Source: a virus
Virus record (IMG/VR): IMGVR_UViG_3300045988_134091
Coordinates: 1-52,932 of that record
DNA length: 52,932 nt
Strand: one strand, 5' to 3'
Part shown: piece by piece, positions 3,256-47,245 of the stretch
Numbering within the stretch: position 1 is the first letter of the stretch
Layout: every line of letters begins with the position of its first letter
The notes under the pieces: model-generated
What the model was told of the DNA's origin: nothing
Databases searched by the model: none
The model's input: the letters and a program-made list of their open reading frames with translations, nothing else
Program-made: the position numbers and the translations under genes

Positions 3256-3284
3256 TTTACTTTTGATTGAAGATAGGGTATGAT
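3256..3284 (+). promoter_or_regulatory. Class B promoter B1 (CTTTACTTTT type)
   Basis: TTTACT 3256-61, 17 nt, TATGAT 3279-84, then ACCAATGTAAGCAGGAGG. Confidence 0.55.
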
Positions 3285-3350
3285 ACCAATGTAAGCAGGA
3301 GGGAACGCCAGAAGCCCTCCCACAATAAAAATTTTAAGGAGTGTATTACA

Positions 3351-3899
3351 ATGCTGGAAATGAACAAGGGTGATAAGGTTATTCTAAAGGGTTTCACGGG
3401 TATCAAGCTGGGTGTGTTCCCGGTTGCGAGCACCACCAAAAAGACCATCACTGTGCTGAAAAAGAATGGTGATGAGATGGTGTTCGACCGCAAGACCGGT
3501 AAGCAGGTCAATGTTGAGGAGGGCAAGGAGAAGTATGCCAACAGCATCATCCCTGATGATGGCAGCTTTGTTGCTCCTTCCACGGCTGGTGCCAAGCGCA
3601 AGTCCACCAAGAAGGCAGCCAAGGTCAAGACCAAGGTTGAGGATGAGGCTGACGAGGACGATGAGGAGGACGATGAGGACAAGGCCCCCAAGAAGTCCAA
3701 GAAGGCAGCCAAGAAGCCTGCAAAGAAGTCTGCCCCCGTTGAGGATGACGAGGACGAGTATGAAGACGATGACGAGGACGATGAGCCCGTCCCTGTCAAG
3801 AAGTCCGTAAAGAAGGGCAAGAAAGCTGCCAAGAAGGGCAAGAAAGCAGCTGCGGATGACGACGAGGACGACGATGAGTTTGAGGAAGTTGATGACTGA
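3351..3899 (+). CDS. Early protein: N-terminal FTG domain (paralogs at 45214 and 45734) plus Lys-rich/acidic block tail
   Basis: RBS aaggag upstream of ATG 3351; KGFTGIKLGVF...FDRKTGKQVN...KYANSI motif; tail made of KKAAKK and DEDDE blocks. Confidence 0.7.
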   Translation: MLEMNKGDKVILKGFTGIKLGVFPVASTTKKTITVLKKNGDEMVFDRKTGKQVNVEEGKEKYANSIIPDDGSFVAPSTAGAKRKSTKKAAKVKTKVEDEADEDDEEDDEDKAPKKSKKAAKKPAKKSAPVEDDEDEYEDDDEDDEPVPVKKSVKKGKKAAKKGKKAAADDDEDDDEFEEVDD

Positions 3900-4168
3900 T
3901 TGTCATACCCTCTAAACTGAATACGGGTGGGGCAACAGCCCCTCCCTTAATGCGGCTGACTGAGGAGCCTCCCAGCTGAAGTCAACGGTGACAAGCCCGT
4001 GTAAACTGCAGAGTCAAGGGACTGTATACCCGGCTCTTGTTTAGGCGCCAGCGAAGAGCAAAGGAAAAGAGTACAGAAGGAAGGAGTTCCCTTGGAGTGC
4101 TCCAAGGTAGAGAAGCTACTACAGCCAGGTGCTAAACCAGTCCTGGCATTAAGTTACAATAAACGGGG

Positions 4169-5134
4169 GTGAGTGAGATACACATCAGCTACTCCAGGGA
4201 AAGCTCCTATTTGCGTTGCCCGTATCAGCATTGGCTAAGGTATGTACGAAGATTGGAGAAGAAGAAGCCTGAACGCCCATTGTATTTTGGAACAGACTTT
4301 CATAAGCTCCTTGAGCTCCGTAATGACCCTGAAGCCCTGAGAGATGCAAAGGAAACCATCAGAGACACCTACTATGAAATGCCGGCATCTTGGCAGGGAG
4401 AGCTGGGTGAGAATTACCTTGATGACCTGTTTAACATTTTCAAGGACTACAGACGGGTGTACAAAGGAGTGAGGCAACCCCAAGTAACAGAGCATGAGTT
4501 TGAGCTTGATGTTGGTGATTGTAAGGGTGAGCCCATAATCTTTGTAGGGAAGATTGATGAGCTGTATTTGCTGAAGCACAGTGGTGTAAAGTCCATAACG
4601 GTTGGTGAACATAAAACTTTCTCCAATAAGCCTAATATGGACATCTTGGTTATGAACACACAAAAGTGCTTGTATGCGAAAGCAGTCCAATTTTTAAGAG
4701 GTATTTTACCCGACAAGGTAAAATGGGATTACATTCGTTCAACACCTGCGGCTGAGCCGATTTGGCTTGAGAAGTCAAAGAGATTCAGTGAGGCAGCATC
4801 AACCAAGATTACACCCATGAGCTGGAAAAGGGCCTGCAAAGCACGCGGGATAATTGACCCAGAGGTTATCCAGAAGGGACAAAAGTACAAGTCCAATATC
4901 CCTGAGTTTTTCTTCCAAGTTGAGCTGGATATTGACCCGGCTATGGTAGATGTGATTTGGGACGGTTTCTTGTACACGGCAAAGCAGATTATCCGGTTTG
5001 GAGACAAGAACAAAACCCGGAATGTAACACGGGACTGTTCCTGGTGTCCGTACCATGATATTTGCTATACAGAAATGACTGGAGGAGATGTACAATATGT
5101 CATCGGTAGAGACTTCAAAGAAAGAGAACACTGA
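4169..5134 (+). CDS. PD-(D/E)XK nuclease, Cas4/RecB-like, with 4-Cys cluster
   Basis: N-terminal YLRCPYQHW Cys; GKIDELYLL...VGEHKT (D...ExK); C-terminal CSWCPYHDIC; GTG start after gggg. Confidence 0.8.
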   Translation: MSEIHISYSRESSYLRCPYQHWLRYVRRLEKKKPERPLYFGTDFHKLLELRNDPEALRDAKETIRDTYYEMPASWQGELGENYLDDLFNIFKDYRRVYKGVRQPQVTEHEFELDVGDCKGEPIIFVGKIDELYLLKHSGVKSITVGEHKTFSNKPNMDILVMNTQKCLYAKAVQFLRGILPDKVKWDYIRSTPAAEPIWLEKSKRFSEAASTKITPMSWKRACKARGIIDPEVIQKGQKYKSNIPEFFFQVELDIDPAMVDVIWDGFLYTAKQIIRFGDKNKTRNVTRDCSWCPYHDICYTEMTGGDVQYVIGRDFKEREH

Positions 5135-12631: not shown

Positions 12632-12677
12632 TTGACTTTTGTTTGAGAGCGGAGTATAATCATGATTGTAAGGAAGG
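12632..12677 (+). promoter_or_regulatory. Class A promoter A1 plus conserved leader box
   Basis: TTGACT 12632-37, 17-nt spacer, TATAAT 12655-60, then CATGATTGTAAGGAAGG. Confidence 0.75.
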
Positions 12678-12710
12678 TAAAACCACAAACAAACTGAGGA
12701 GGAATACAAA

Positions 12711-42190: not shown

Positions 42191-42238
42191 TTGACTTTTC
42201 CAATTCTTGGTAGTATGATATGATTGTAAAGAGGAAAG
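42191..42238 (+). promoter_or_regulatory. Class A promoter A3 plus conserved leader box
   Basis: TTGACT 42191-96, 17 nt, TATGAT 42214-19, then ATGATTGTAAAGAGGAAAG. Confidence 0.75.
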
Positions 42239-42287
42239 AACACTCAAAGAAAACACGACAGGCCAAAAGGCCGGAAAGGACAACAAA

Positions 42288-42779
42288 ATGGAAAGCATTA
42301 AAGTCACCTCTCAGAATCAGCTTGATAAGCTGCCGACCAATTACATTGGAAGAATTTGCGTTTGCTTCGGGACTCCGATCAACCCCGCAATTATAAGAGG
42401 CGAGCATAAATACGCCACTATTCTAGTCGCTGGCCACAGTTGCGCGGTAGTTATGGGCGATGCCCACATCATCGCGCGCGACAGCAGCAGCGTTGTGGCA
42501 CTTGGCGGCAGCACTGTTGCGGCGCACAATAGCAGCCATGTCGAGGCACGAGACGTCAGCAGCGTTGTGGCTTTTGATTATAGCACCGTCGTCGCTTGGG
42601 ATCGCAGCCACGTCGAGGCACGCGGCCACGTATGCGTCGACGCGCGCGATGACAGTGAGATTAACGTCGTTATGCTGAACAACACCATTGTCGCGCGGGA
42701 CAACAGCAAAGTTGAGGCATGGAGCGGCAACAACATCACGGCGCTTGGCAACGCCACTGTCCTGTATTTTGATCTCTAA
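42288..42779 (+). CDS. Beta-solenoid-like repeat protein (about 8-residue xSxVxAxD repeats)
   Basis: SSHVEARD/VSSVVAFD/YSTVVAWD/RSHVEARG/HVCVDARD... tandem units; GC-rich; first gene after promoter A3. Confidence 0.65.
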   Translation: MESIKVTSQNQLDKLPTNYIGRICVCFGTPINPAIIRGEHKYATILVAGHSCAVVMGDAHIIARDSSSVVALGGSTVAAHNSSHVEARDVSSVVAFDYSTVVAWDRSHVEARGHVCVDARDDSEINVVMLNNTIVARDNSKVEAWSGNNITALGNATVLYFDL

Positions 42780-42797
42780 TCCCGCACCACTGATGTG

Positions 42798-42854
42798 CCC
42801 AACTGACGAGAGCCGGATGGCGACCGGCCGAAACGTCCTGATGGGCGTCTTGGG
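42798..42854 (+). ncRNA. Type I hammerhead ribozyme HH-2
   Basis: Stem I CCCAA/UUGGG. CUGACGA 42803-09. Stem II GCCGG/CCGGC. GAAA 42830-33. Stem III ACGUCC-UGAU-GGGCGU. GUC 42847-49. Compensatory changes in stems II and III relative to HH-1. Confidence 0.85.
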
Positions 42855-42898
42855 AAGCCAAAACAGCAGGCCGCAGTGCGGCCGGAAAGGACAACAAA

Positions 42899-43054
42899 AT
42901 GAAAGTATTTGGAGACCCGCGCGCACGGGCAAAGGCGCGCAAATACATCGTCTGGGGCATCGAGGATGGTATCGTCTGCGCAAGCTTCCTCGGTGGTATC
43001 GCGCTGGCTGGATGGGTATTCCATGTGATCTTCACGGCATTGGGGGTGGAATGA
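42899..43054 (+). CDS. Small TM protein (51 aa)
   Basis: Hand translation MKVFGDPRARAKARKYIVWGIEDGIVCASFLGGIALAGWVFHVIFTALGVE; same leader sequence as gene 42288. Confidence 0.45.
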   Translation: MKVFGDPRARAKARKYIVWGIEDGIVCASFLGGIALAGWVFHVIFTALGVE

Positions 43055-43333: not shown

Positions 43334-43469
43334 TCCCACCTGACGATGGCCCAGCTGGTAACTGGCCGAAACACCCCGAAACGGAAAGCCTGGTTGGAAA
43401 GTACCTGCAACGACAGGGAGGATACAATTAGATGCGCCGTGGCGATAGTGCGAGAGGGGTGTCGTGGGA
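43334..43469 (+). ncRNA. Type I hammerhead ribozyme HH-3 with a roughly 78-nt insertion in stem III
   Basis: Stem I UCCCAC(43334-39)/GUGGGA(43464-69). CUGACGA 43340-46. Stem II GGCC.AG/CU.GGCC. GAAA 43368-71. Stem III ACACCCC(43371-77)/GGGGUGU(43456-62). GUC 43461-63. Confidence 0.65.
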
Positions 43470-43507
43470 AACCACCCAATCTTGAAACCATATAGGAGGT
43501 ATTCAAC

Positions 43508-43812: not shown

Positions 43813-44106
43813 ATGAACAGTGTACCATTTCAGTGCTTGGAAAGTTCTGAGCCACTTGGTAGCGGTATAACCAGAGAAATTTGGTTCATTACCACAGCTG
43901 AGGGTCAGCCTGTAAGACGCACAGTGTACAAGGAGGAGGATGGCTCAGTGGTAGCCATTCAGGACTATGGGCAAGGACTGAGTACTGATTTGTATGTTGA
44001 GGCTATGTTCTATGAGCTTTTCAAAGGAGAAGACAACTGGTTGAAGATTCAGACCGACAGTGGGGTATATAGCACCAGTCGCATACAGTTGTTCAATATG
44101 AGGTGA
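43813..44106 (+). CDS. Hypothetical protein
   Basis: ORF track; aggagg upstream. Confidence 0.55.
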
Positions 44107-44110
44107 AACC

Positions 44111-44380
44111 ATGAATGCTATCAATATTGGATTGGGCAACTTTGTCTCCGCAGACCGGGTGGTTGCCATTGTGAGTCCGGAATCTGCCCCCATCAAGCGT
44201 ATGGTACAGGAGGCCAAGGACAAGGGAACGGCAGTTGATTCCACCTATGGTCGTAGAACAAGAGGGGTGTTGATTATGGATAGCGGGCAGCTTGTGCTGT
44301 CCTCTCTCCAGCCCTCTACGATTGTTGCCAAGAGCACAACAAAGAATGCCAAAGAAAAGGCGGTTGATGACGATGACTGA
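44111..44380 (+). CDS. remA: RemA (DUF370) family DNA-binding regulator homolog
   Basis: [68 protein letters not shown] matches the B. subtilis RemA pattern recalled from memory. Confidence 0.85.
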
Positions 44381-44564
44381 TTGTGTACTGTTCTCCAAAG
44401 AAGACTATGACAGCATACTATCTCATCTCAAGTCAATACAGATTGAGTGTGAGAATTCTCAAGCCATCAATCTGTCTGGTCGGAGAAACAACTCATACCA
44501 TATCTGTGAGATTGAGAGACACATCGAAGCAATTGAGGCCCTGCTGAAGAAGGAGGGGCTGTAA
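44367..44564 (+). CDS. Hypothetical protein (65 aa)
   Basis: ATG 44367 lies inside track ORF 44292-44564. Confidence 0.45.
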
Positions 44565-44800
44565 TGGATAAAGGCTTTCTCAGGCCCTGTGAAGTCACAG
44601 TTGAATCCAAAGGGGGGAAGACTGTATACAAAGGTTGGTTTCATTGCTGGGAGCATTATTCAGAAGTTGTTGGTGAATCTCCTTTGAGGGGTGGTCACTC
44701 TGCTGGTCAAATCTCTTTTGTTCTTGGTATTGTTGAGAATGAGGAAGGGCAGATTGCCCGGTTTTACCCAACACAGATACGGTTTACAGACCGAGATTGA
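44564..44800 (+). CDS. Hypothetical protein
   Basis: ORF track; its ATG begins on the last base of the upstream stop codon (TAATG overlap). Confidence 0.55.
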   Translation: MDKGFLRPCEVTVESKGGKTVYKGWFHCWEHYSEVVGESPLRGGHSAGQISFVLGIVENEEGQIARFYPTQIRFTDRD

Positions 44801-44806
44801 AAATAC

Positions 44807-44844
44807 AAGCCCTTGTGGAAGCTACACAGTTTCCGCAGGGGCTT
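44807..44844 (+). terminator. 14-bp hairpin immediately upstream of promoter A4
   Basis: aagcccttgtggaa / ttccgcaggggctt (includes G:U pairs), 10-nt loop, followed by gaaaattttt. Confidence 0.55.
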
Positions 44845-44875
44845 GAAAATTTTTCAACAAATTTCAAAATAATGC

Positions 44876-44923
44876 TTGACTTCTTGTAGTGCTGGTAGTA
44901 TACTAATGATTGTAAGGAACAGG
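44876..44923 (+). promoter_or_regulatory. Class A promoter A4 plus conserved leader box
   Basis: TTGACT 44876-81, 17 nt, TATACT 44899-904, then AATGATTGTAAGGAACAGG. Confidence 0.75.
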
Positions 44924-44953
44924 AACACCTGATAAAACAAGGAGGATTACAAA

Positions 44954-45127
44954 ATGATGTATACCGTAACAACCTATTTCAAGCTTGAGCGTTTGTACCA
45001 TATAACGGAAAAGATTGAAGCAGAGAATCCAAAAGAGGCAAAGAAAATTGCACTTGTAAAAGTTTTGTCTTCCAATCCTGAAGCTACAAACATCCGTCAA
45101 AGGGCTCAAAAATCTCACAGAGAATAA
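44954..45127 (+). CDS. Small early protein (57 aa), followed immediately by a hammerhead ribozyme
   Basis: aaggagg RBS; promoter A4 upstream; hand translation MMYTVTTYFKLERLYHITEKIEAENPKEAKKIALVKVLSSNPEATNIRQRAQKSHRE. Confidence 0.55.
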   Translation: MMYTVTTYFKLERLYHITEKIEAENPKEAKKIALVKVLSSNPEATNIRQRAQKSHRE

Positions 45128-45184
45128 CCCAACTGATGAGAGCTGGATGGTGACCAGCCGAAACCAGGGCAACCTGGTCTTGGG
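45128..45184 (+). ncRNA. Type I hammerhead ribozyme HH-1
   Basis: Stem I CCCAA(45128-32)/UUGGG(45180-84). CUGAUGA 45133-39. Stem II GCUGG/CCAGC, closed by G45140:C45159. GAAA 45160-63. Stem III ACCAGG-GCAA-CCUGGU. Cleavage triplet GUC 45177-79. Confidence 0.85.
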
Positions 45185-45213
45185 AAACCAAACCAAACTG
45201 AGGAGGTTCAATT

Positions 45214-45603
45214 ATGAATTACATATACATCAACACCCGTGACAATCGTCAGTACATCCTCAACCCCATGATCACAATGGGTGAGAAGGTTTGCTTGGTT
45301 GATATGGCCAATTGTGAGGACAAGTTTGTATCCCTCAAGACCTTGAAGCGGTGGTACAGCAAAACCATTACTGAGCAGCCTGTTGTTGAACTGCGGGCCT
45401 TTACTGGTATGAAGATTGGACTATTCCGGGCTGAGCTTGCTACCAATACCAACACTCTGTATCTGTGGACCAAGCAGAACAAGCTCCTGACCTTTGACCT
45501 AGATATGGGGAATCAGACCAATGCCAAGAATCCCAAGTTTGCCAATCGCATTCACGACACATACGACTTCTTGGAAAGCTCCTTGAACTGGGTTTTGTCT
45601 TGA
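45214..45603 (+). CDS. Early protein with C-terminal FTG domain
   Basis: gaggagg RBS; RAFTGMKIGLF...FDLDMGNQTN...KFANRI. Confidence 0.65.
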   Translation: MNYIYINTRDNRQYILNPMITMGEKVCLVDMANCEDKFVSLKTLKRWYSKTITEQPVVELRAFTGMKIGLFRAELATNTNTLYLWTKQNKLLTFDLDMGNQTNAKNPKFANRIHDTYDFLESSLNWVLS

Positions 45604-45636
45604 ATCGAAATTTTTGAGAGAAGTTCAAATTTGTGC

Positions 45637-45686
45637 TTGACTTTTCCTTGATACAAGAGTATAATCATAATTGTAAAGAGGAAAAC
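45637..45686 (+). promoter_or_regulatory. Class A promoter A5 plus conserved leader box
   Basis: TTGACT 45637-42, 17 nt, TATAAT 45660-65, then CATAATTGTAAAGAGGAAAAC. Confidence 0.75.
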
Positions 45687-45733
45687 ACATACAGACCGGA
45701 ACACCTGTACATTTGAAAAGGAGATTGAATACA

Positions 45734-46483
45734 ATGAAAAAGACCATCATCACCTACACCAGCCGCAAGAATGCTTCCAAGGTTTACACCCTGGTTTCCT
45801 TCGATGAGGCCAATAACACCGCTGTTCTGACTGATTCCAATGGAACTGAGCACATCATGAAGCTGACCACTCTTCGCAAGACCTTCAAGAAGTCCGTTGA
45901 GGAAGTCGAGGTTGAGGAGCCCAAGACCGAAACCGAGACTATGACCAAGCATCAGAAGAGTGCCCTGAAGAATATCCGCTGCGGATACAACTGGGTCATC
46001 GGTGGCCTGGAAAACGCCGTTCAGGATGGTGAGATGGAAGAGATGCCCGCTGTCGAGGAGATGTTTGAGGAAGTGTACGATGAGGTTACCAGCTGCACCT
46101 TTGATGAAGGTTTCGGTGATTCCCAGGCTGCTCCCATCTGCATGAAGTTCGCTGGTAAGAAGTTCATCCGTGAGCAGATTGCCAAGCTGTTCCGGGCTGA
46201 TGGTTATGAGGTGTCTGAGGAACTGGTTGCTGTTCCTGAGCACAAGACTGGTCACAGCAACTTTGTAGATGGTGAGCGCATCAATCTCCGCAAGGATGAG
46301 GGCGAGAGAGTGGTCAAGGTCAGAGCCTTCACGGGTATGCTGATTGGGACATTCAAGGTGGAGAAGGAAACCAAGACCACCATCACCGTCAAGACTGCCA
46401 AAGGAAAGATGAAGTTTGATCGAGAAACTGGAATCCAGGTTAACTCGAACAACAAGAAGTTCGCCAACCGCATCGAAGTCTGA
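45734..46483 (+). CDS. Early protein with C-terminal FTG domain
   Basis: aaaggag lies upstream of ATG 45734; RAFTGMLIGTF...FDRETGIQVN...KFANRI. Confidence 0.65.
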   Translation: MKKTIITYTSRKNASKVYTLVSFDEANNTAVLTDSNGTEHIMKLTTLRKTFKKSVEEVEVEEPKTETETMTKHQKSALKNIRCGYNWVIGGLENAVQDGEMEEMPAVEEMFEEVYDEVTSCTFDEGFGDSQAAPICMKFAGKKFIREQIAKLFRADGYEVSEELVAVPEHKTGHSNFVDGERINLRKDEGERVVKVRAFTGMLIGTFKVEKETKTTITVKTAKGKMKFDRETGIQVNSNNKKFANRIEV

Positions 46484-46595
46484 TGCGGTGGTGGATTTCA
46501 CGAAAAGAAAAGCAGGGGTGAGATAGGGGAAGAAAAGTCTGTGAGTGCACGATATAATGATGTGATTTCCGGGCTTTTCTCCCCGTTTCCCGGCC

Positions 46596-46625
46596 TTTAC
46601 TTTTCCGAGGGTGATACCTTATAAT
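46596..46625 (+). promoter_or_regulatory. Class B promoter B2 (CTTTACTTTTCCGA type)
   Basis: TTTACT 46596-601, 18 nt, TATAAT 46620-25; upstream of the HD gene. Confidence 0.55.
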
Positions 46626-46666
46626 ATATGCATGAGGCTGAATGGCCAGAAAAGGAGGTATCACCA

Positions 46667-47245
46667 GTGAAACAGTATCTGTTATCGGAGGAAGATCGCA
46701 AGAAGGACTTGTTGGAGCTGCTTGAAAAGAACAATGTTCCGCTTGAGTTGTTCCCGTATGAGTGGTTGTGTACCACAGATTTCTTCAGAGCACCTGCTTC
46801 AAAAGGATTCCACGCAGCATATCCGGGGGGATTGTATGACCACTGTGTAAATGTCACTTCCCAGCTCTTGGATATGAGAGACAAGGGAGTGACGCAAACT
46901 TGGGGCCGGGTTGAAAGCCCAATTATTGTGGGCATGCTACACGATGTCACAAAGATCGGTATGTACATCCTGAGTCAAGACATGAACCCAATCAAGCAGG
47001 GGATTGAAACATTTCACATCAAAAACCCTCTGTACAGCGGCTTTGGTGGACATGGGTATGATTCAGTATGCAAGATTGAACAGCACATGAGGCTGACAGA
47101 AGAGGAACGGTTGTGTATCAGATACCATATGGGTGCCTATGAGACAGATGATTGGAGCGGGTATGATAGAGCAATCAGAAAGTTTCCAAATGTACTCTGG
47201 ACACACACCGCTGATATGTTGGCCTCCAAACTGATGGAGGATTGA
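46667..47245 (+). CDS. HD-domain phosphohydrolase
   Basis: aaaggagg lies 8 nt upstream of GTG 46667; FHAAYPGGLYDHCVNV and MLHDVTKIG (H...HD) motifs. Confidence 0.65.
   Translation: MKQYLLSEEDRKKDLLELLEKNNVPLELFPYEWLCTTDFFRAPASKGFHAAYPGGLYDHCVNVTSQLLDMRDKGVTQTWGRVESPIIVGMLHDVTKIGMYILSQDMNPIKQGIETFHIKNPLYSGFGGHGYDSVCKIEQHMRLTEEERLCIRYHMGAYETDDWSGYDRAIRKFPNVLWTHTADMLASKLMED

What the first reader, a model, noticed from the sequence alone, without database searches (positions are those of the whole stretch)
45128..45184. Complete type I hammerhead ribozyme between two early genes (HH-1)
The stop codon of the 57-aa gene is at 45125-27. Directly after it the RNA reads CCCAA-CUGAUGA-G-A-GCUGG-AUGGUGA-CCAGC-C-GAAA-CCAGG-GCAA-CCUGG-UC/UUGGG.

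All invariant hammerhead core positions are present: CUGANGA, GAAA and the A15.1:U16.1 pair. Stem III is closed by a GNRA loop (GCAA). The cleavage triplet is GUC, so cleavage is predicted after C45179. Stem I (CCCAA/UUGGG) is the open stem, which makes this type I topology.

The predicted 3' cleavage product begins UUGGGAAACCAAACCAAACUGAGGAGG, which is the leader and SD of gene 45214. That leader closely resembles the primary-transcript leader made from promoter A1 (GGUAAAACCACAAACAAACUGAGGAGG at about 12675-12700). The ribozyme may therefore generate an mRNA 5' end that mimics a promoter-derived one.
Basis: partly seen in the sequence, partly recalled or inferred. Interest (0 to 1): 0.85.

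Follow-up and report, generated by a model that had tools for sequence, protein, structure and literature searches.

The report
Self-cleaving hammerhead ribozyme between phage genes
A small self-cutting RNA, a type I hammerhead ribozyme, sits between two small genes of an uncultured phage; it is genuine and conserved, but it is another example of an element already known from phages, not a new kind of thing.

Summary
Bases 45128-45184 (+) read exactly as described and carry every conserved hammerhead core position in type I order.

It is not a chance motif. A structural descriptor finds two such sites in the window, against 0.003 per shuffled window. A covariance model built only from other metagenomic copies scores it 81.9 bits. 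Across 39 distinct relatives, 97% of cells pair and 16 of 20 pairs show changes on both sides.

Three points were missed:
- A 4-bp pseudoknot joins loop II (UGGU, 45148-51) to the 3' tail (ACCA, 45187-90). It covaries (UGGU/ACCA, UGGC/GCCA, UGAU/AUCA).
- The window holds two more copies, at 42798-42860 and 43335-43474. The second has a roughly 78-nt insert in stem III.
- A twister ribozyme lies at 3944-4019.

No Rfam model reaches its curated threshold. The best hit, RAGATH-1, reflects the shared core only.

The copies lie 0-22 nt after a stop codon and 24-57 nt before the next start. They also sit at mosaic junctions between related phages. The most likely role is cutting polycistronic mRNA to give the downstream gene a defined 5'-OH leader; this is inferred, not shown.

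Verdict: a new member of a known kind (prophage hammerheads, Perreault 2011).

The parts
45128..45132 (+). Stem I, 5' strand (CCCAA; positions 2.5-2.1). It starts directly after the TAA of the 57-aa ORF.
   Evidence: All 5 pairs with 45180-84 covary in relatives (CCCAA, CCACA, CUCGC, UCCAA, CCAUA, CUACA, CCCAC, CGACA, CCUGC).
45133..45139 (+). Core C3 U4 G5 A6 U7 G8 A9 (CUGAUGA).
   Evidence: Invariant apart from N7 in alignment A1.
45140..45159 (+). Stem II: G10.1-C11.1, a bulged A at 45141, then GCUGG/CCAGC, closed by the 7-nt loop AUGGUGA (45147-53).
   Evidence: Five of 6 pairs show changes on both sides. In some relatives the A pairs with a U instead of bulging.
45148..45151 (+). Pseudoknot, loop II side (UGGU).
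   Evidence: Pairs with 45187-90. 100% paired in A1 and 95.5% in A2. Covariation is U-A/C-G at one pair and G-C/A-U at another.
45160..45162 (+). Core G12 A13 A14.
   Evidence: Invariant in A1.
45163..45178 (+). Stem III: A15.1-U16.1 plus CCAGG/CCUGG, closed by the GCAA tetraloop (45169-72).
   Evidence: A-U and C-G next to the core are conserved, and the outer three pairs covary.
45179..45180 (+). Predicted scissile bond between C17 (45179) and U1.1 (45180).
   Evidence: Position follows from the standard hammerhead numbering applied. Cleavage itself is inferred, not shown.
45180..45184 (+). Stem I, 3' strand (UUGGG). It would be the 5' end of the downstream product.
45187..45190 (+). Pseudoknot, 3'-tail side (ACCA), two unpaired A after stem I.
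   Evidence: The tail was not constrained by the search pattern or by the covariance model.
45200..45216 (+). SD (GAGGAGG, 45200-06) and start codon (45214-16) of the 129-aa ORF. The start codon is 34 nt from the cleavage site.
44876..44904 (+). Sigma-70-like promoter (TTGACT-17-TATACT) of the unit orf57 - hammerhead - orf129. A strong terminator-like hairpin lies just upstream at 44806-44845.
   Evidence: These are consensus matches only.
42798..42860 (+). Second copy (W2): CCCAA CUGACGA G A GCCGG AUGGCGA CCGGC C GAA A CGUCC UGAU GGGCG U C | UUGGG AA GCCA. Cleavage is predicted after C42849. It lies between orf163 and orf51.
   Evidence: 83.9 bits; 82.6 bits. Compared with the copy at 45128 it has one compensatory change in stem II, a different stem III, and pseudoknot UGGC/GCCA.
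43335..43474 (+). Third copy (W3): CCCAC CUGACGA U GGCCCAG CUGGUAA CUGGCC GAA ACACCCC [78-nt insert] GGGGUGU C | GUGGG AA ACCA. Cleavage is predicted after C43463. There is an extra U between A9 and G10.1.
   Evidence: Homologues are L001:3521 (67 nt, no insert), L003:1088 (92 nt) and L009:6777 (143 nt, same insert). The MFE fold of 43335-43486 gives the three-way junction.

Best explanation
Bases 45128-45190 encode a genuine type I hammerhead ribozyme. It belongs to a subfamily with three features: a 5-bp open stem I, a 6-bp stem II capped by the loop AUGGYGA, and a 3-5-bp pseudoknot. The pseudoknot joins that loop to the 3' tail (AARCCA) two nucleotides beyond stem I. It takes the place of the loop-loop contact that holds stems I and II parallel in other natural hammerheads.

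Proposed mechanism. The element is transcribed from the promoter at 44876 as part of an orf57-orf129 mRNA. It should fold and cut itself between C45179 and U45180. The upstream fragment keeps its stop codon and ends in the folded ribozyme with a 2',3'-cyclic phosphate. The downstream fragment starts with 5'-OH-UUGGGAAACCAAACCAAACUGAGGAGG and carries orf129. The cut uncouples the downstream gene from whatever lies upstream and gives it a fixed leader. The same phage uses two more copies and a twister ribozyme in the same way.

What is shown: the sequence anatomy, the covariation of the three stems and the pseudoknot, the intercistronic placement, the conservation and the mosaic context.

What is inferred: self-cleavage, the chemistry of the ends (established for hammerheads in general), and any effect on mRNA stability or translation.
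For: - **Core and topology.** Read directly from the sequence.
- **Chance.** Two descriptor hits in the window against 0.003 per shuffle.
- **Family model.** 84.0 bits with the model that includes the window; 81.9 bits with the model built without window sequences.
- **Covariation, A1 (17 distinct copies).** 99.7% of cells paired, 14 of 20 pairs changed on both sides, score 0.585 against 0.208 shuffled (0/500) and at most 0.114 when slid.
- **Covariation, A2 (39 distinct copies, window excluded).** 97.3% paired, 16 of 20 pairs changed on both sides, score 0.621 against 0.199.
- **Pseudoknot.** UGGU/ACCA in most copies. UGGC/GCCA or GCCG in four (W2, L055, L058, L005:5126). UGAUU/AAUCA in L011:18. 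It always starts 1-2 nt after stem I.
- **Placement.** In 30 of 41 distinct copies the element starts 0-22 nt after the stop of an ORF on the same strand. In 33 of 41 the cleavage site lies 24-57 nt before an SD-preceded start.
- **Multiple copies.** Contigs carry 2-5 copies each.
- **Conservation.** The 57 nt are 100% identical in L001, L003, L004 and L009, while the adjacent orf129 DNA is 83-96% identical and the upstream ORF is unrelated.
- **Precedent.** Perreault et al. 2011 (PMC3088659) reported hammerheads flanking single genes in prophages. They reported stem I-II pseudoknots in about 40% of representatives of all three types, needed for fast cleavage at 0.5 mM Mg2+. They also saw in vivo cleavage of an Agrobacterium triple arrangement.
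Against: - No Rfam family reaches its gathering score. Hammerhead_1 scores 13.2 against 34, and RAGATH-1-hammerhead 26.4 against 56.3.
- Folding energy is unremarkable: z = -1.6 for the 57-mer.
- In a 170-nt context the hammerhead fold is 5.8 kcal/mol above the MFE. The nearest-neighbour model does not count the pseudoknot. Upstream UCUCACAG can pair with the core CUG.AUGAGA.
- Stem I is only 5 bp with two A-U pairs, and stem II has a bulged A next to G10.1-C11.1.
- Orthologues of orf129 at 58% identity have no ribozyme, only 25 nt between stop and start, so the element is dispensable for that gene.
- There are no experimental data. The sequences in A1 were pre-filtered on stem I and stem III pairing, and A2 is fitted to the model. 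Stem II and the pseudoknot were free of the first bias, and the pseudoknot was free of both.
Confidence: 0.85

Rival explanations
1. The ribozyme is real, but its effect is the opposite of protective. In a Firmicute host, the 5'-OH product would be a preferred substrate of RNase J1, as for the glmS ribozyme product in Bacillus subtilis. Cleavage would then lower expression of orf129 relative to orf57 instead of insulating or stabilising it.
For: The closest cellular carriers of this subfamily are Oscillospiraceae and Clostridia MAGs. The nearest named phages by DNA polymerase infect Clostridium perfringens. The review PMC6765202 cites degradation by cellular RNases after glmS cleavage in Gram-positives. 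That RNase J1 acts on the 5'-OH product is my own knowledge (Collins et al. 2007).
Against: The 3' products of all three window copies can fold their first four nucleotides into a flush hairpin (UUGG-GAAA-CCAA and equivalents). This pairing covaries in 24 relatives and would be expected to hinder a 5' exonuclease. The copies precede strong SD sequences. Nothing here measures RNA stability.
Confidence: 0.25
2. The conserved 60-nt element matters mainly at the DNA level. It would act as a shared stretch of homology at which related phages exchange gene cassettes. RNA cleavage would be secondary or vestigial.
For: Copies with 96-100% identical ribozymes have unrelated sequence on one or both sides. 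Examples: the upstream side in window/L001/L003/L004, the downstream side in L007/L016/L046 and L041/L013, and both sides in L019/L044 and L011/L042. The homology blocks between the window and its relatives break exactly at 44956 and resume at 45125-45128. Different copies share up to 32 identical bases.
Against: Compensatory changes in three stems and the pseudoknot, with an invariant catalytic core, are the signature of selection on the RNA fold, not on DNA identity. The orientation is always that of the flanking genes. The two roles are not mutually exclusive.
Confidence: 0.12
3. It is a member of the RAGATH-1 / 'PK hammerhead' family (RF03152). In that family helix II is replaced by a pseudoknot with the loop of a hairpin upstream of stem I.
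For: RF03152 is the best Rfam match, at 26.4 bits and local E = 0.012. Its alignment includes an upstream hairpin, UCUC-ACA-GAGA at 45113-23, followed by AUAA.
Against: The score is far below the gathering score of 56.3, and E = 3.1 over the whole window. The window element keeps a 6-bp covarying helix II. The upstream hairpin lies in the unique orf57 and is absent from the four relatives that carry the identical ribozyme. Its 3-nt loop cannot form the 6-bp pseudoknot described for that family (PMC11300833).
Confidence: 0.02
4. It is a chance match to the hammerhead consensus, or a decayed and inactive relic.
For: There is no Rfam gathering-level hit and the folding z-score is ordinary. Decayed copies do exist in the family: L054:6113 has lost CUGANGA.
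Against: Descriptor expectation is 0.003 per window. The leave-out covariance model gives 81.9 bits. Every core position is intact. The element is 100% conserved among relatives whose flanks have diverged 4-17%.
Confidence: 0.03

Closest known systems
Bacterial and prophage hammerhead ribozymes with a stem I-stem II pseudoknot (Perreault et al. 2011, PLoS Comput Biol, PMC3088659)
   Same: - Canonical core.
- Pseudoknot instead of a loop-loop contact.
- Several copies flanking single genes or short gene blocks in phage DNA.
- Flanking genes of varying identity.
- Proposed role in cutting long phage transcripts into gene-length mRNAs.
   Different: That paper's consensus pseudoknot is for type II, between loop I and the tail after stem II. 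Here the open stem is I, and loop II pairs with the 3' tail after stem I. I could not check whether this exact subfamily is in their alignments, because Dataset S1 is not held. The loop sequence does not occur in the supplementary files that are held.
Rfam RF00163 Hammerhead_1 (type I hammerheads of viroids, satellite RNAs, Schistosoma and other repeats)
   Same: Type I connectivity, the same core, and cleavage after H17.
   Different: The window element scores 13.2 bits against a gathering score of 34, and is misaligned. Those members use a loop II / stem I internal-loop contact and a longer stem I. They serve rolling-circle or repeat transcripts, not phage mRNAs.
Rfam RF03152 RAGATH-1 hammerhead ('PK hammerhead'; structure in Zhan et al. 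2024, PMC11300833)
   Same: Type I order, a 5-bp stem I, the CUGAUGAG...CGAAAC core, and use of a pseudoknot.
   Different: In that family helix II is replaced by a pseudoknot with an upstream hairpin (helix IV), joined by an AUA4 linker. Here helix II is intact and the partner is the 3' tail. Score is 26.4 against 56.3.
RiboJ-type synthetic insulators: a hammerhead followed by a hairpin, placed between promoter and RBS (my own knowledge, Lou et al. 2012)
   Same: A self-cleaving hammerhead removes variable upstream RNA. The downstream gene then always has the same leader, which begins with a small hairpin.
   Different: RiboJ is engineered from the sTRSV type III ribozyme. The natural element here sits between cistrons, and its insulating effect has not been tested.
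Twister ribozymes of bacteria and phages (Roth et al. 2014; Rfam clan CL00120)
   Same: Found in the same kind of genomic neighbourhood. One lies in this window at 3944-4019.
   Different: An unrelated fold and core.

Membership tests
Hammerhead ribozyme (class) | Conserved core strand C3-U4-G5-A6-N7-G8-A9 | tested here: met
   CUGAUGA at 45133-39. Invariant apart from N7 in 17 aligned copies.
Hammerhead ribozyme (class) | Conserved G12-A13-A14 followed by the A15.1-U16.1 pair | tested here: met
   GAA at 45160-62, with A45163 paired to U45178. A-U in 17 of 17 copies and 38 of 39.
Hammerhead ribozyme (class) | Cleavage-site nucleotide 17 is not G (H17) | tested here: met
   C45179. Relatives have C, A or U.
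Hammerhead ribozyme (class) | Three helices around the core, supported by compensatory changes | tested here: met
   In A1, both-side changes occur in 5 of 5 stem I pairs, 5 of 6 stem II pairs and 3 of 5 stem III pairs. In A2 the figures are 5/5, 5/6 and 4/5. Caveats: A1 was pre-filtered on stems I and III, and A2 is fitted to the model.
Hammerhead ribozyme (class) | Tertiary contact holding stems I and II parallel (loop-loop or pseudoknot) | tested here: met
   Loop II UGGU pairs with tail ACCA. 100% of cells pair in A1 and 95.5% in A2, with two covarying pairs. Its effect on rate is not testable here.
Hammerhead ribozyme (class) | Site-specific self-cleavage giving 2',3'-cyclic phosphate and 5'-OH ends | not testable with these tools
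   Needs in vitro transcription or RNA-end mapping.
Type I topology | Stem I is open; stems II and III are closed by loops. Order: stem I 5' strand, CUGANGA, hairpin II, GAA, hairpin III, H17, stem I 3' strand. | tested here: met
   Read directly from the sequence. The centroid fold of the 57-mer gives this junction.
Rfam RF00163 Hammerhead_1 | Score at or above the curated gathering score (34 bits) | tested here: not met
   13.2 bits, with the stems misassigned. This is a property of that model, not of the ribozyme class.
Rfam RF03152 RAGATH-1 hammerhead | Score at or above the gathering score (56.3 bits) | tested here: not met
   26.4 bits.
Rfam RF03152 RAGATH-1 hammerhead | Helix II replaced by a pseudoknot with the loop of a conserved upstream hairpin (helix IV) | tested here: not met
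   Helix II is 6 bp and covaries. The upstream hairpin is not conserved in relatives that carry the identical ribozyme. The family is described in PMC11300833.
Prophage/phage hammerheads of Perreault et al. 2011 | Located in phage DNA between genes on the same strand, often several per gene cluster | tested here: met
   The window is a phage of about 53 kb, with terminase, portal, tape measure and DNA polymerase. It has three copies. Relatives carry 2-5 copies.

The most novel reading that the evidence does not exclude
These hammerheads may be portable 'punctuation marks' for phage gene cassettes, with a tail that does two jobs. Before cleavage, the tail (AARCCNN) docks loop II. After cleavage, the same tail is a near copy of the stem I 5' strand. 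It can therefore capture the new 5' end in a flush 4-bp hairpin (UUGG-GAAA-CCAA). That would make the cut irreversible and shield the 5'-OH end.

On this reading, a gene inserted into an operon together with such a ribozyme leaves the next gene with a leader like the one it had directly behind the promoter. The comparison with L009 shows this arrangement: orf163 plus the ribozyme are inserted between a duplicated 22-nt leader segment. This would explain why the ribozymes sit at mosaic junctions.
Probability: 0.3. Interest if true: 0.6.

Novelty: new member of a known kind. Interest (0 to 1): 0.45.

Why it matters
Hammerhead and twister ribozymes have been known in phage and prophage DNA since 2011-2014. 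Reviews still state that their purpose there is undetermined (PMC6765202).

This window does not add a new ribozyme class. It does offer a compact, well-delimited test case:
- three hammerheads and a twister in one phage of about 53 kb;
- each between small genes downstream of recognisable promoters;
- close relatives that differ by presence or absence of a gene-plus-ribozyme cassette (L009), by the gene upstream of an identical ribozyme (L001, L003, L004), or by lacking the ribozyme before the orthologous gene (L066, L067).

These natural contrasts are what is needed to test whether the ribozymes insulate, stabilise or down-tune the downstream mRNA.

There is also a practical point. Rfam 15 detects none of the copies of this type I subfamily, so routine annotation will miss them. 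A dedicated covariance model, like R1 built here, would recover them.

Tried and rejected
- **Rfam.** The gathering-threshold scan of the whole window gave no hits. E-value scans gave only sub-threshold RAGATH-1 and a misaligned Hammerhead_1 hit.
- **RAGATH-1 membership.** Rejected, because the upstream hairpin is not conserved and helix II is intact.
- **GenBank phages.** Megablast of 44000-47000 found no match. Sensitive blastn of the 66-nt element also found none. The closest deposited phage, bajarodcaudo virus 5 (55.7% DNA polymerase identity), has no copy by covariance model.
- **The copy at 43335.** I first read it as degenerate: apparent G17, no stem III, only 18.4 bits. Its homologues and a fold of the longer region overturned this. 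It is intact, with a 78-nt insert in stem III.
- **Pattern-scan false positives.** About 18 hits in metagenomes and genomes were CTGAGGAGA...ATGGCGA, which is an SD plus a start codon. They were discarded because they lack stems.
- **Folding energy.** z-scores of -1.0 to -1.7 carry no weight either way.
- **Protein families.** PHROGs and Pfam searches of the flanking small ORFs gave no informative families.
- **Perreault 2011 supplements.** I searched them for this loop sequence and found nothing, but the alignment file itself is not held.
- **Recent literature.** Two searches for newer work on the function of phage hammerheads found nothing beyond the 2019 review.
Full report
**1. The observation**

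The 57-aa ORF stops at 45125-27. The following bases then give, in order:
- stem I 5' strand CCCAA;
- CUGAUGA;
- a hairpin, G-A-GCUGG / AUGGUGA / CCAGC-C;
- GAA;
- a hairpin beginning with A and ending with U (A-CCAGG / GCAA / CCUGG-U);
- C;
- stem I 3' strand UUGGG.

This is the order of a type I hammerhead. Every conserved core position is present: C3 to A9, G12 to A14, the A15.1-U16.1 pair, a non-G at position 17, and G10.1-C11.1. The SD GAGGAGG (45200-06) and the ATG of a 129-aa ORF (45214) follow, 34 nt after the predicted cleavage site.

**2. Is it more than chance?**

Rfam does not settle this.
- Nothing in the window reaches a gathering score.
- In a permissive local scan the best hit is RF03152, RAGATH-1 hammerhead, at 26.4 bits against a gathering score of 56.3.
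- RF00163, Hammerhead_1, reaches only 13.2 bits with the stems misassigned.
- Folding energy is not informative either: z = -1.6.

Three other tests are decisive.
- **Descriptor test.** A structural descriptor for a type I hammerhead finds two sites in the real window (45128 and 42798). Over 300 dinucleotide-preserving shuffles it found one in total.
- **Relatives.** Pattern scans used the core plus loop II, with the stems left free. They returned 6 loci from IMG/VR, 44 from metagenomes and 9 from genomes. About two thirds of these are true copies with different stem sequences. The rest are SD-plus-ATG coincidences.
- **Leave-out model.** A covariance model built from 15 of those copies, with no window sequence, scores the finding at 81.9 bits. 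It scores a second window site at 82.6 bits. The next best site in 53 kb scores 18.8 bits.

**3. Covariation**

On 17 distinct copies (alignment A1):
- 99.7% of cells form standard pairs;
- 14 of 20 pairs show changes on both sides;
- the covariation score is 0.585, against 0.208 for shuffles (0 of 500 reach it) and at most 0.114 when partners are slid.

On 39 distinct copies found by the model in the fetched loci, with the window excluded, the figures are 97.3%, 16 of 20, and 0.621 against 0.199.

Two biases need stating. A1 was pre-filtered for stem I and stem III pairing. A2 is aligned to the model's structure. Stem II escaped the first bias. The pseudoknot escaped both.

**4.

All copies share the loop AUGGYGA, or a close variant, and a tail AARCCA beginning right after stem I. 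Loop UGGY pairs with tail RCCA, two nucleotides beyond stem I.
- UGGU/ACCA occurs in most copies.
- UGGC/GCCA or GCCG occurs in W2, L055, L058 and L005:5126.
- UGGU/ACUA, with a G-U pair, occurs in L011, L042 and L044.
- UGAUU/AAUCA occurs in L011:18.

These are shown.

In the finding the partners are 45148-51 and 45187-90. The ribozyme therefore extends to 45190, and the first bases of the 'leader' belong to it. Perreault et al. 2011 reported such stem I-stem II pseudoknots in about 40% of hammerheads of all three types. They showed the pseudoknots are needed for fast cleavage at 0.5 mM Mg2+ (PMC3088659).

**5. It is not a RAGATH-1 hammerhead**

That family, the 'PK hammerhead', replaces helix II with a pseudoknot. 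The partner is the loop of a hairpin upstream of stem I (PMC11300833).

The Rfam alignment used an upstream hairpin at 45113-23. That hairpin lies inside orf57. orf57 is unique to this phage, and the hairpin is absent from four relatives that carry the identical ribozyme. Helix II here is 6 bp and covaries.

**6. Other ribozymes in the window**

- **W2, 42798-42860.** It has the same stem I, one compensatory change in stem II, an unrelated stem III, and pseudoknot UGGC/GCCA.
- **W3, 43335-43474.** I first took it for a relic. Homologues without an insert (L001:3521, 67 nt), with a different insert (L003:1088, 92 nt) and with the same insert (L009:6777, 143 nt) show otherwise. It is an intact hammerhead whose stem III (ACACCCC/GGGGUGU) encloses 78 nt. 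The MFE fold of 43335-43486 reproduces the three-way junction.
- **Twister, 3944-4019.** A type-P1 twister scores 44.4 bits, with E = 1.3e-6 over the whole window, below its gathering score. Seven IMG/VR relatives keep its core and vary P1 and the variable hairpin compensatorily.

**7. Context**

The window is a phage of about 53 kb with a siphovirus-like gene set: DNA polymerase, helicase, terminase, portal and tape measure. Its closest deposited relative is a rodent-gut metagenomic phage, at 55.7% DNA polymerase identity. Clostridium perfringens phages follow at 36%. Cellular carriers of the subfamily are Oscillospiraceae and Clostridia MAGs.

The finding lies in a unit that starts at a sigma-70-like promoter (TTGACT-17-TATACT, 44876-44904). 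This sits just after a strong terminator-like hairpin (44806-45). The unit runs through orf57, the ribozyme and orf129, to the next promoter at 45637-65.

Across 41 distinct copies:
- 30 start 0-22 nt after the stop codon of an ORF on the same strand;
- 33 have the cleavage site 24-57 nt before an SD-preceded start.

Contigs carry up to five copies. One marine contig, L013, has three of these plus two Rfam-recognised type II hammerheads within 1.9 kb. This matches the arrangement Perreault et al. described for prophages.

**8. Mosaic junctions**

In the relatives L001, L003, L004 and L009:
- the promoter and leader up to the start codon (44843-44956) are conserved;
- the ribozyme plus orf129 (45125/45128-45679) are conserved;
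- the ORF in between is unrelated to orf57.

The 57 nt of the ribozyme are 100% identical in all four relatives. The adjoining DNA is 83-96% identical. Elsewhere in the family, identical ribozymes have unrelated downstream genes, or unrelated sequence on both sides. More distant orthologues of orf129 (58% identity; L066, L067) have no ribozyme at all. The element is therefore an accessory module that sits at exchange points.

**9. A natural insertion**

L009 is about 95% identical to the window but lacks 42294-42866, which is orf163 plus W2. In L009 the promoter at 42191 is followed by a leader with the hairpin GGCCGC-AGC-GCGGCC and GGAAAGGACAACAAAAUG, and this runs straight into orf51.

In the window the 22-nt segment GGCCGGAAAGGACAACAAAATG occurs twice, at 42269-90 before orf163 and at 42880-901 before orf51. 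W2 cleavage would give orf51 an mRNA that starts 19 nt before its native leader hairpin.

The similarity is AAACCA, then an A/C-rich spacer, then the 12-mer AAACUGAGGAGG, which occurs only at these two places. The promoter there (12632-37 and 12655-60) predicts a transcript start near 12665-68, not at 12676.

**10. A possible second role for the tail**

The tail AARCCNN is a near copy of the stem I 5' strand (CCCNN). The 3' product can therefore fold its very first nucleotides into a hairpin:
- UUGG-GAAA-CCAA in the finding;
- UUGG-GAAG-CCAA in W2;
- GUGG-GAAA-CCAC in W3.

In 24 distinct family members with this register, 41 of 48 cells pair at the two variable positions: U-A 10, G-C 9, G-U 2 at one; U-A 17, C-G 3 at the other. 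Only 1 of 5000 shuffles reaches this. On A1 the helix is 73.5% paired.

The helix is not universal; members with a UGUGG stem I lack it. Relatedness of the sequences also inflates the shuffle statistic. I record it as a hypothesis: the hairpin may capture the product and shield the 5' end.

**11. Mechanism and its status**

Shown: the anatomy, covariation, placement, conservation and mosaic context.

Inferred from the established chemistry of hammerheads: cleavage between C45179 and U45180, giving a 2',3'-cyclic phosphate and a 5'-OH.

Inferred from context:
- The cut separates orf57 from orf129.
- The upstream fragment keeps its stop codon and a structured 3' end.
- The downstream gene gets a fixed leader that does not depend on the variable upstream ORF.

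The direction of the effect on expression is open. In Firmicutes a 5'-OH end can be a target for RNase J1, as with glmS (my own knowledge; also alluded to in PMC6765202). A down-tuning role is therefore a serious rival.

A caution specific to this copy: nearest-neighbour folding of 170 nt places the hammerhead fold 5.8 kcal/mol above the MFE. The pseudoknot is not counted in that model. The orf57 codons UCUCACAG can pair with the core CUG.AUGAGA. Efficiency may therefore depend on co-transcriptional folding or on ribosomes clearing that stretch.

**12. Novelty and verdict**

- **Known kind.** Hammerheads in phage and prophage operons, pseudoknot-stabilised hammerheads and ribozyme clusters are all published. 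This is a new member of a known kind.
- **What is not catalogued.** No Rfam 15 model detects this type I subfamily: 0 of 12 copies. The 66-nt element has no blastn match in 50,697 deposited phage genomes. I could not check the 2011 alignments.
- **Value.** It is a clean natural test bed for the still-open question of what these ribozymes do in phages.
- **Scores.** Interest is 0.45.

Noticed in passing
window 3944-4019 (+): Type-P1 twister ribozyme candidate in the 270-nt gap between ORF 3267-3899 and the PD-(D/E)XK nuclease gene 4169-5134. RF03160 scores 44.4 bits (gathering score 67.2), with E = 1.3e-6 over the whole window. Seven IMG/VR relatives keep the core (CGGUGACAAGCCCGUGUAAA...GCAGAG). 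P1 changes compensatorily (CCC/GGG to UCC/GGA), as does the variable hairpin.
   Followed up: partly
window 43378-43455 (+), inside stem III of the hammerhead at 43335-43474: The 78-nt insert in stem III carries an SD-like GGGAGGA (43416-22). An AUG at 43432 opens a 17-codon ORF ending at 43485, which runs across the predicted cleavage site (43463/64). The same insert is in L009. L001 has no insert and L003 has a different one. It could be chance, or a translation-dependent control of folding.
   Followed up: no
window 42269-42290 and 42880-42901 (+); L009 7350-7390: A 22-nt direct repeat, GGCCGGAAAGGACAACAAAATG, flanks a cassette of orf163 plus a hammerhead. The cassette is absent from the 95%-identical relative L009. 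The promoter-proximal leader has been duplicated, so the displaced gene orf51 keeps its hairpin and SD.
   Followed up: yes
window 12632-12680, 42191-42240, 44876-44925, 45637-45685 (+): A repeated promoter module. It has an AT-rich stretch with AAATTTTTC, then TTGACT, 17 nt, TATAAT or a near match, and then a conserved start region, cATGATTGTAAgGA. Terminator-like hairpins precede two of them, at 42143-61 and 44806-45.
   Followed up: partly
window 45180-45191, 42850-42861, 43464-43475 (+): The first 12 nt of each predicted 3' cleavage product can form a flush 4-bp hairpin (UUGG-GAAA-CCAA, UUGG-GAAG-CCAA, GUGG-GAAA-CCAC). This hairpin excludes both stem I and the pseudoknot. The two variable pairs covary in 24 relatives.
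   Followed up: partly
window 45113-45141 (+): The last codons of orf57 (UCUCACAG) are complementary to the ribozyme core and the start of stem II (CUG.AUGAGA). This pairing appears in the MFE of 141-170-nt contexts. It is specific to this phage, because orf57 is unique to it.
   Followed up: partly
window 45214-45603 and 45713-46483 (+): Residues 55-113 of orf129 are about 47-49% identical to the C-terminal part of the next gene, orf256 (VRAFTGM.IG.F ... NKKFANRI). The two neighbouring genes therefore share a domain of unknown function. Neither matches Pfam or PHROGs.
   Followed up: no
L054 6113-6195 (Oscillospiraceae MAG CANQTO010000013.1): A decayed copy of the hammerhead. CUGANGA is lost and GAAA has become GAAG, but stems II and III and the tail are retained. 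It lies 1.2 kb downstream of an intact copy, and each precedes a paralogous gene (MTNHPIDD... and MTNCPVDG...).
   Followed up: no
L013 38-102, 335-396, 763-826, 1081-1143, 1827-1889 (marine metagenome contig Ga0181577_10085345): Five hammerheads lie within 1.9 kb: two type II (RF02276, at 57.4 and 35.8 bits) and three of the type I pseudoknot subfamily. Each sits between small ORFs. The related contig L041 lacks one hammerhead-plus-gene unit.
   Followed up: partly
L066 1460-1490 and L067 (IMG/VR contigs 3300028886_000347 and 3300032007_000114): Orthologues of orf129 at 58% identity are preceded by only 25 nt (stop, SD, ATG) and have no ribozyme. This shows presence/absence polymorphism of the element at an orthologous position.
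   Followed up: yes
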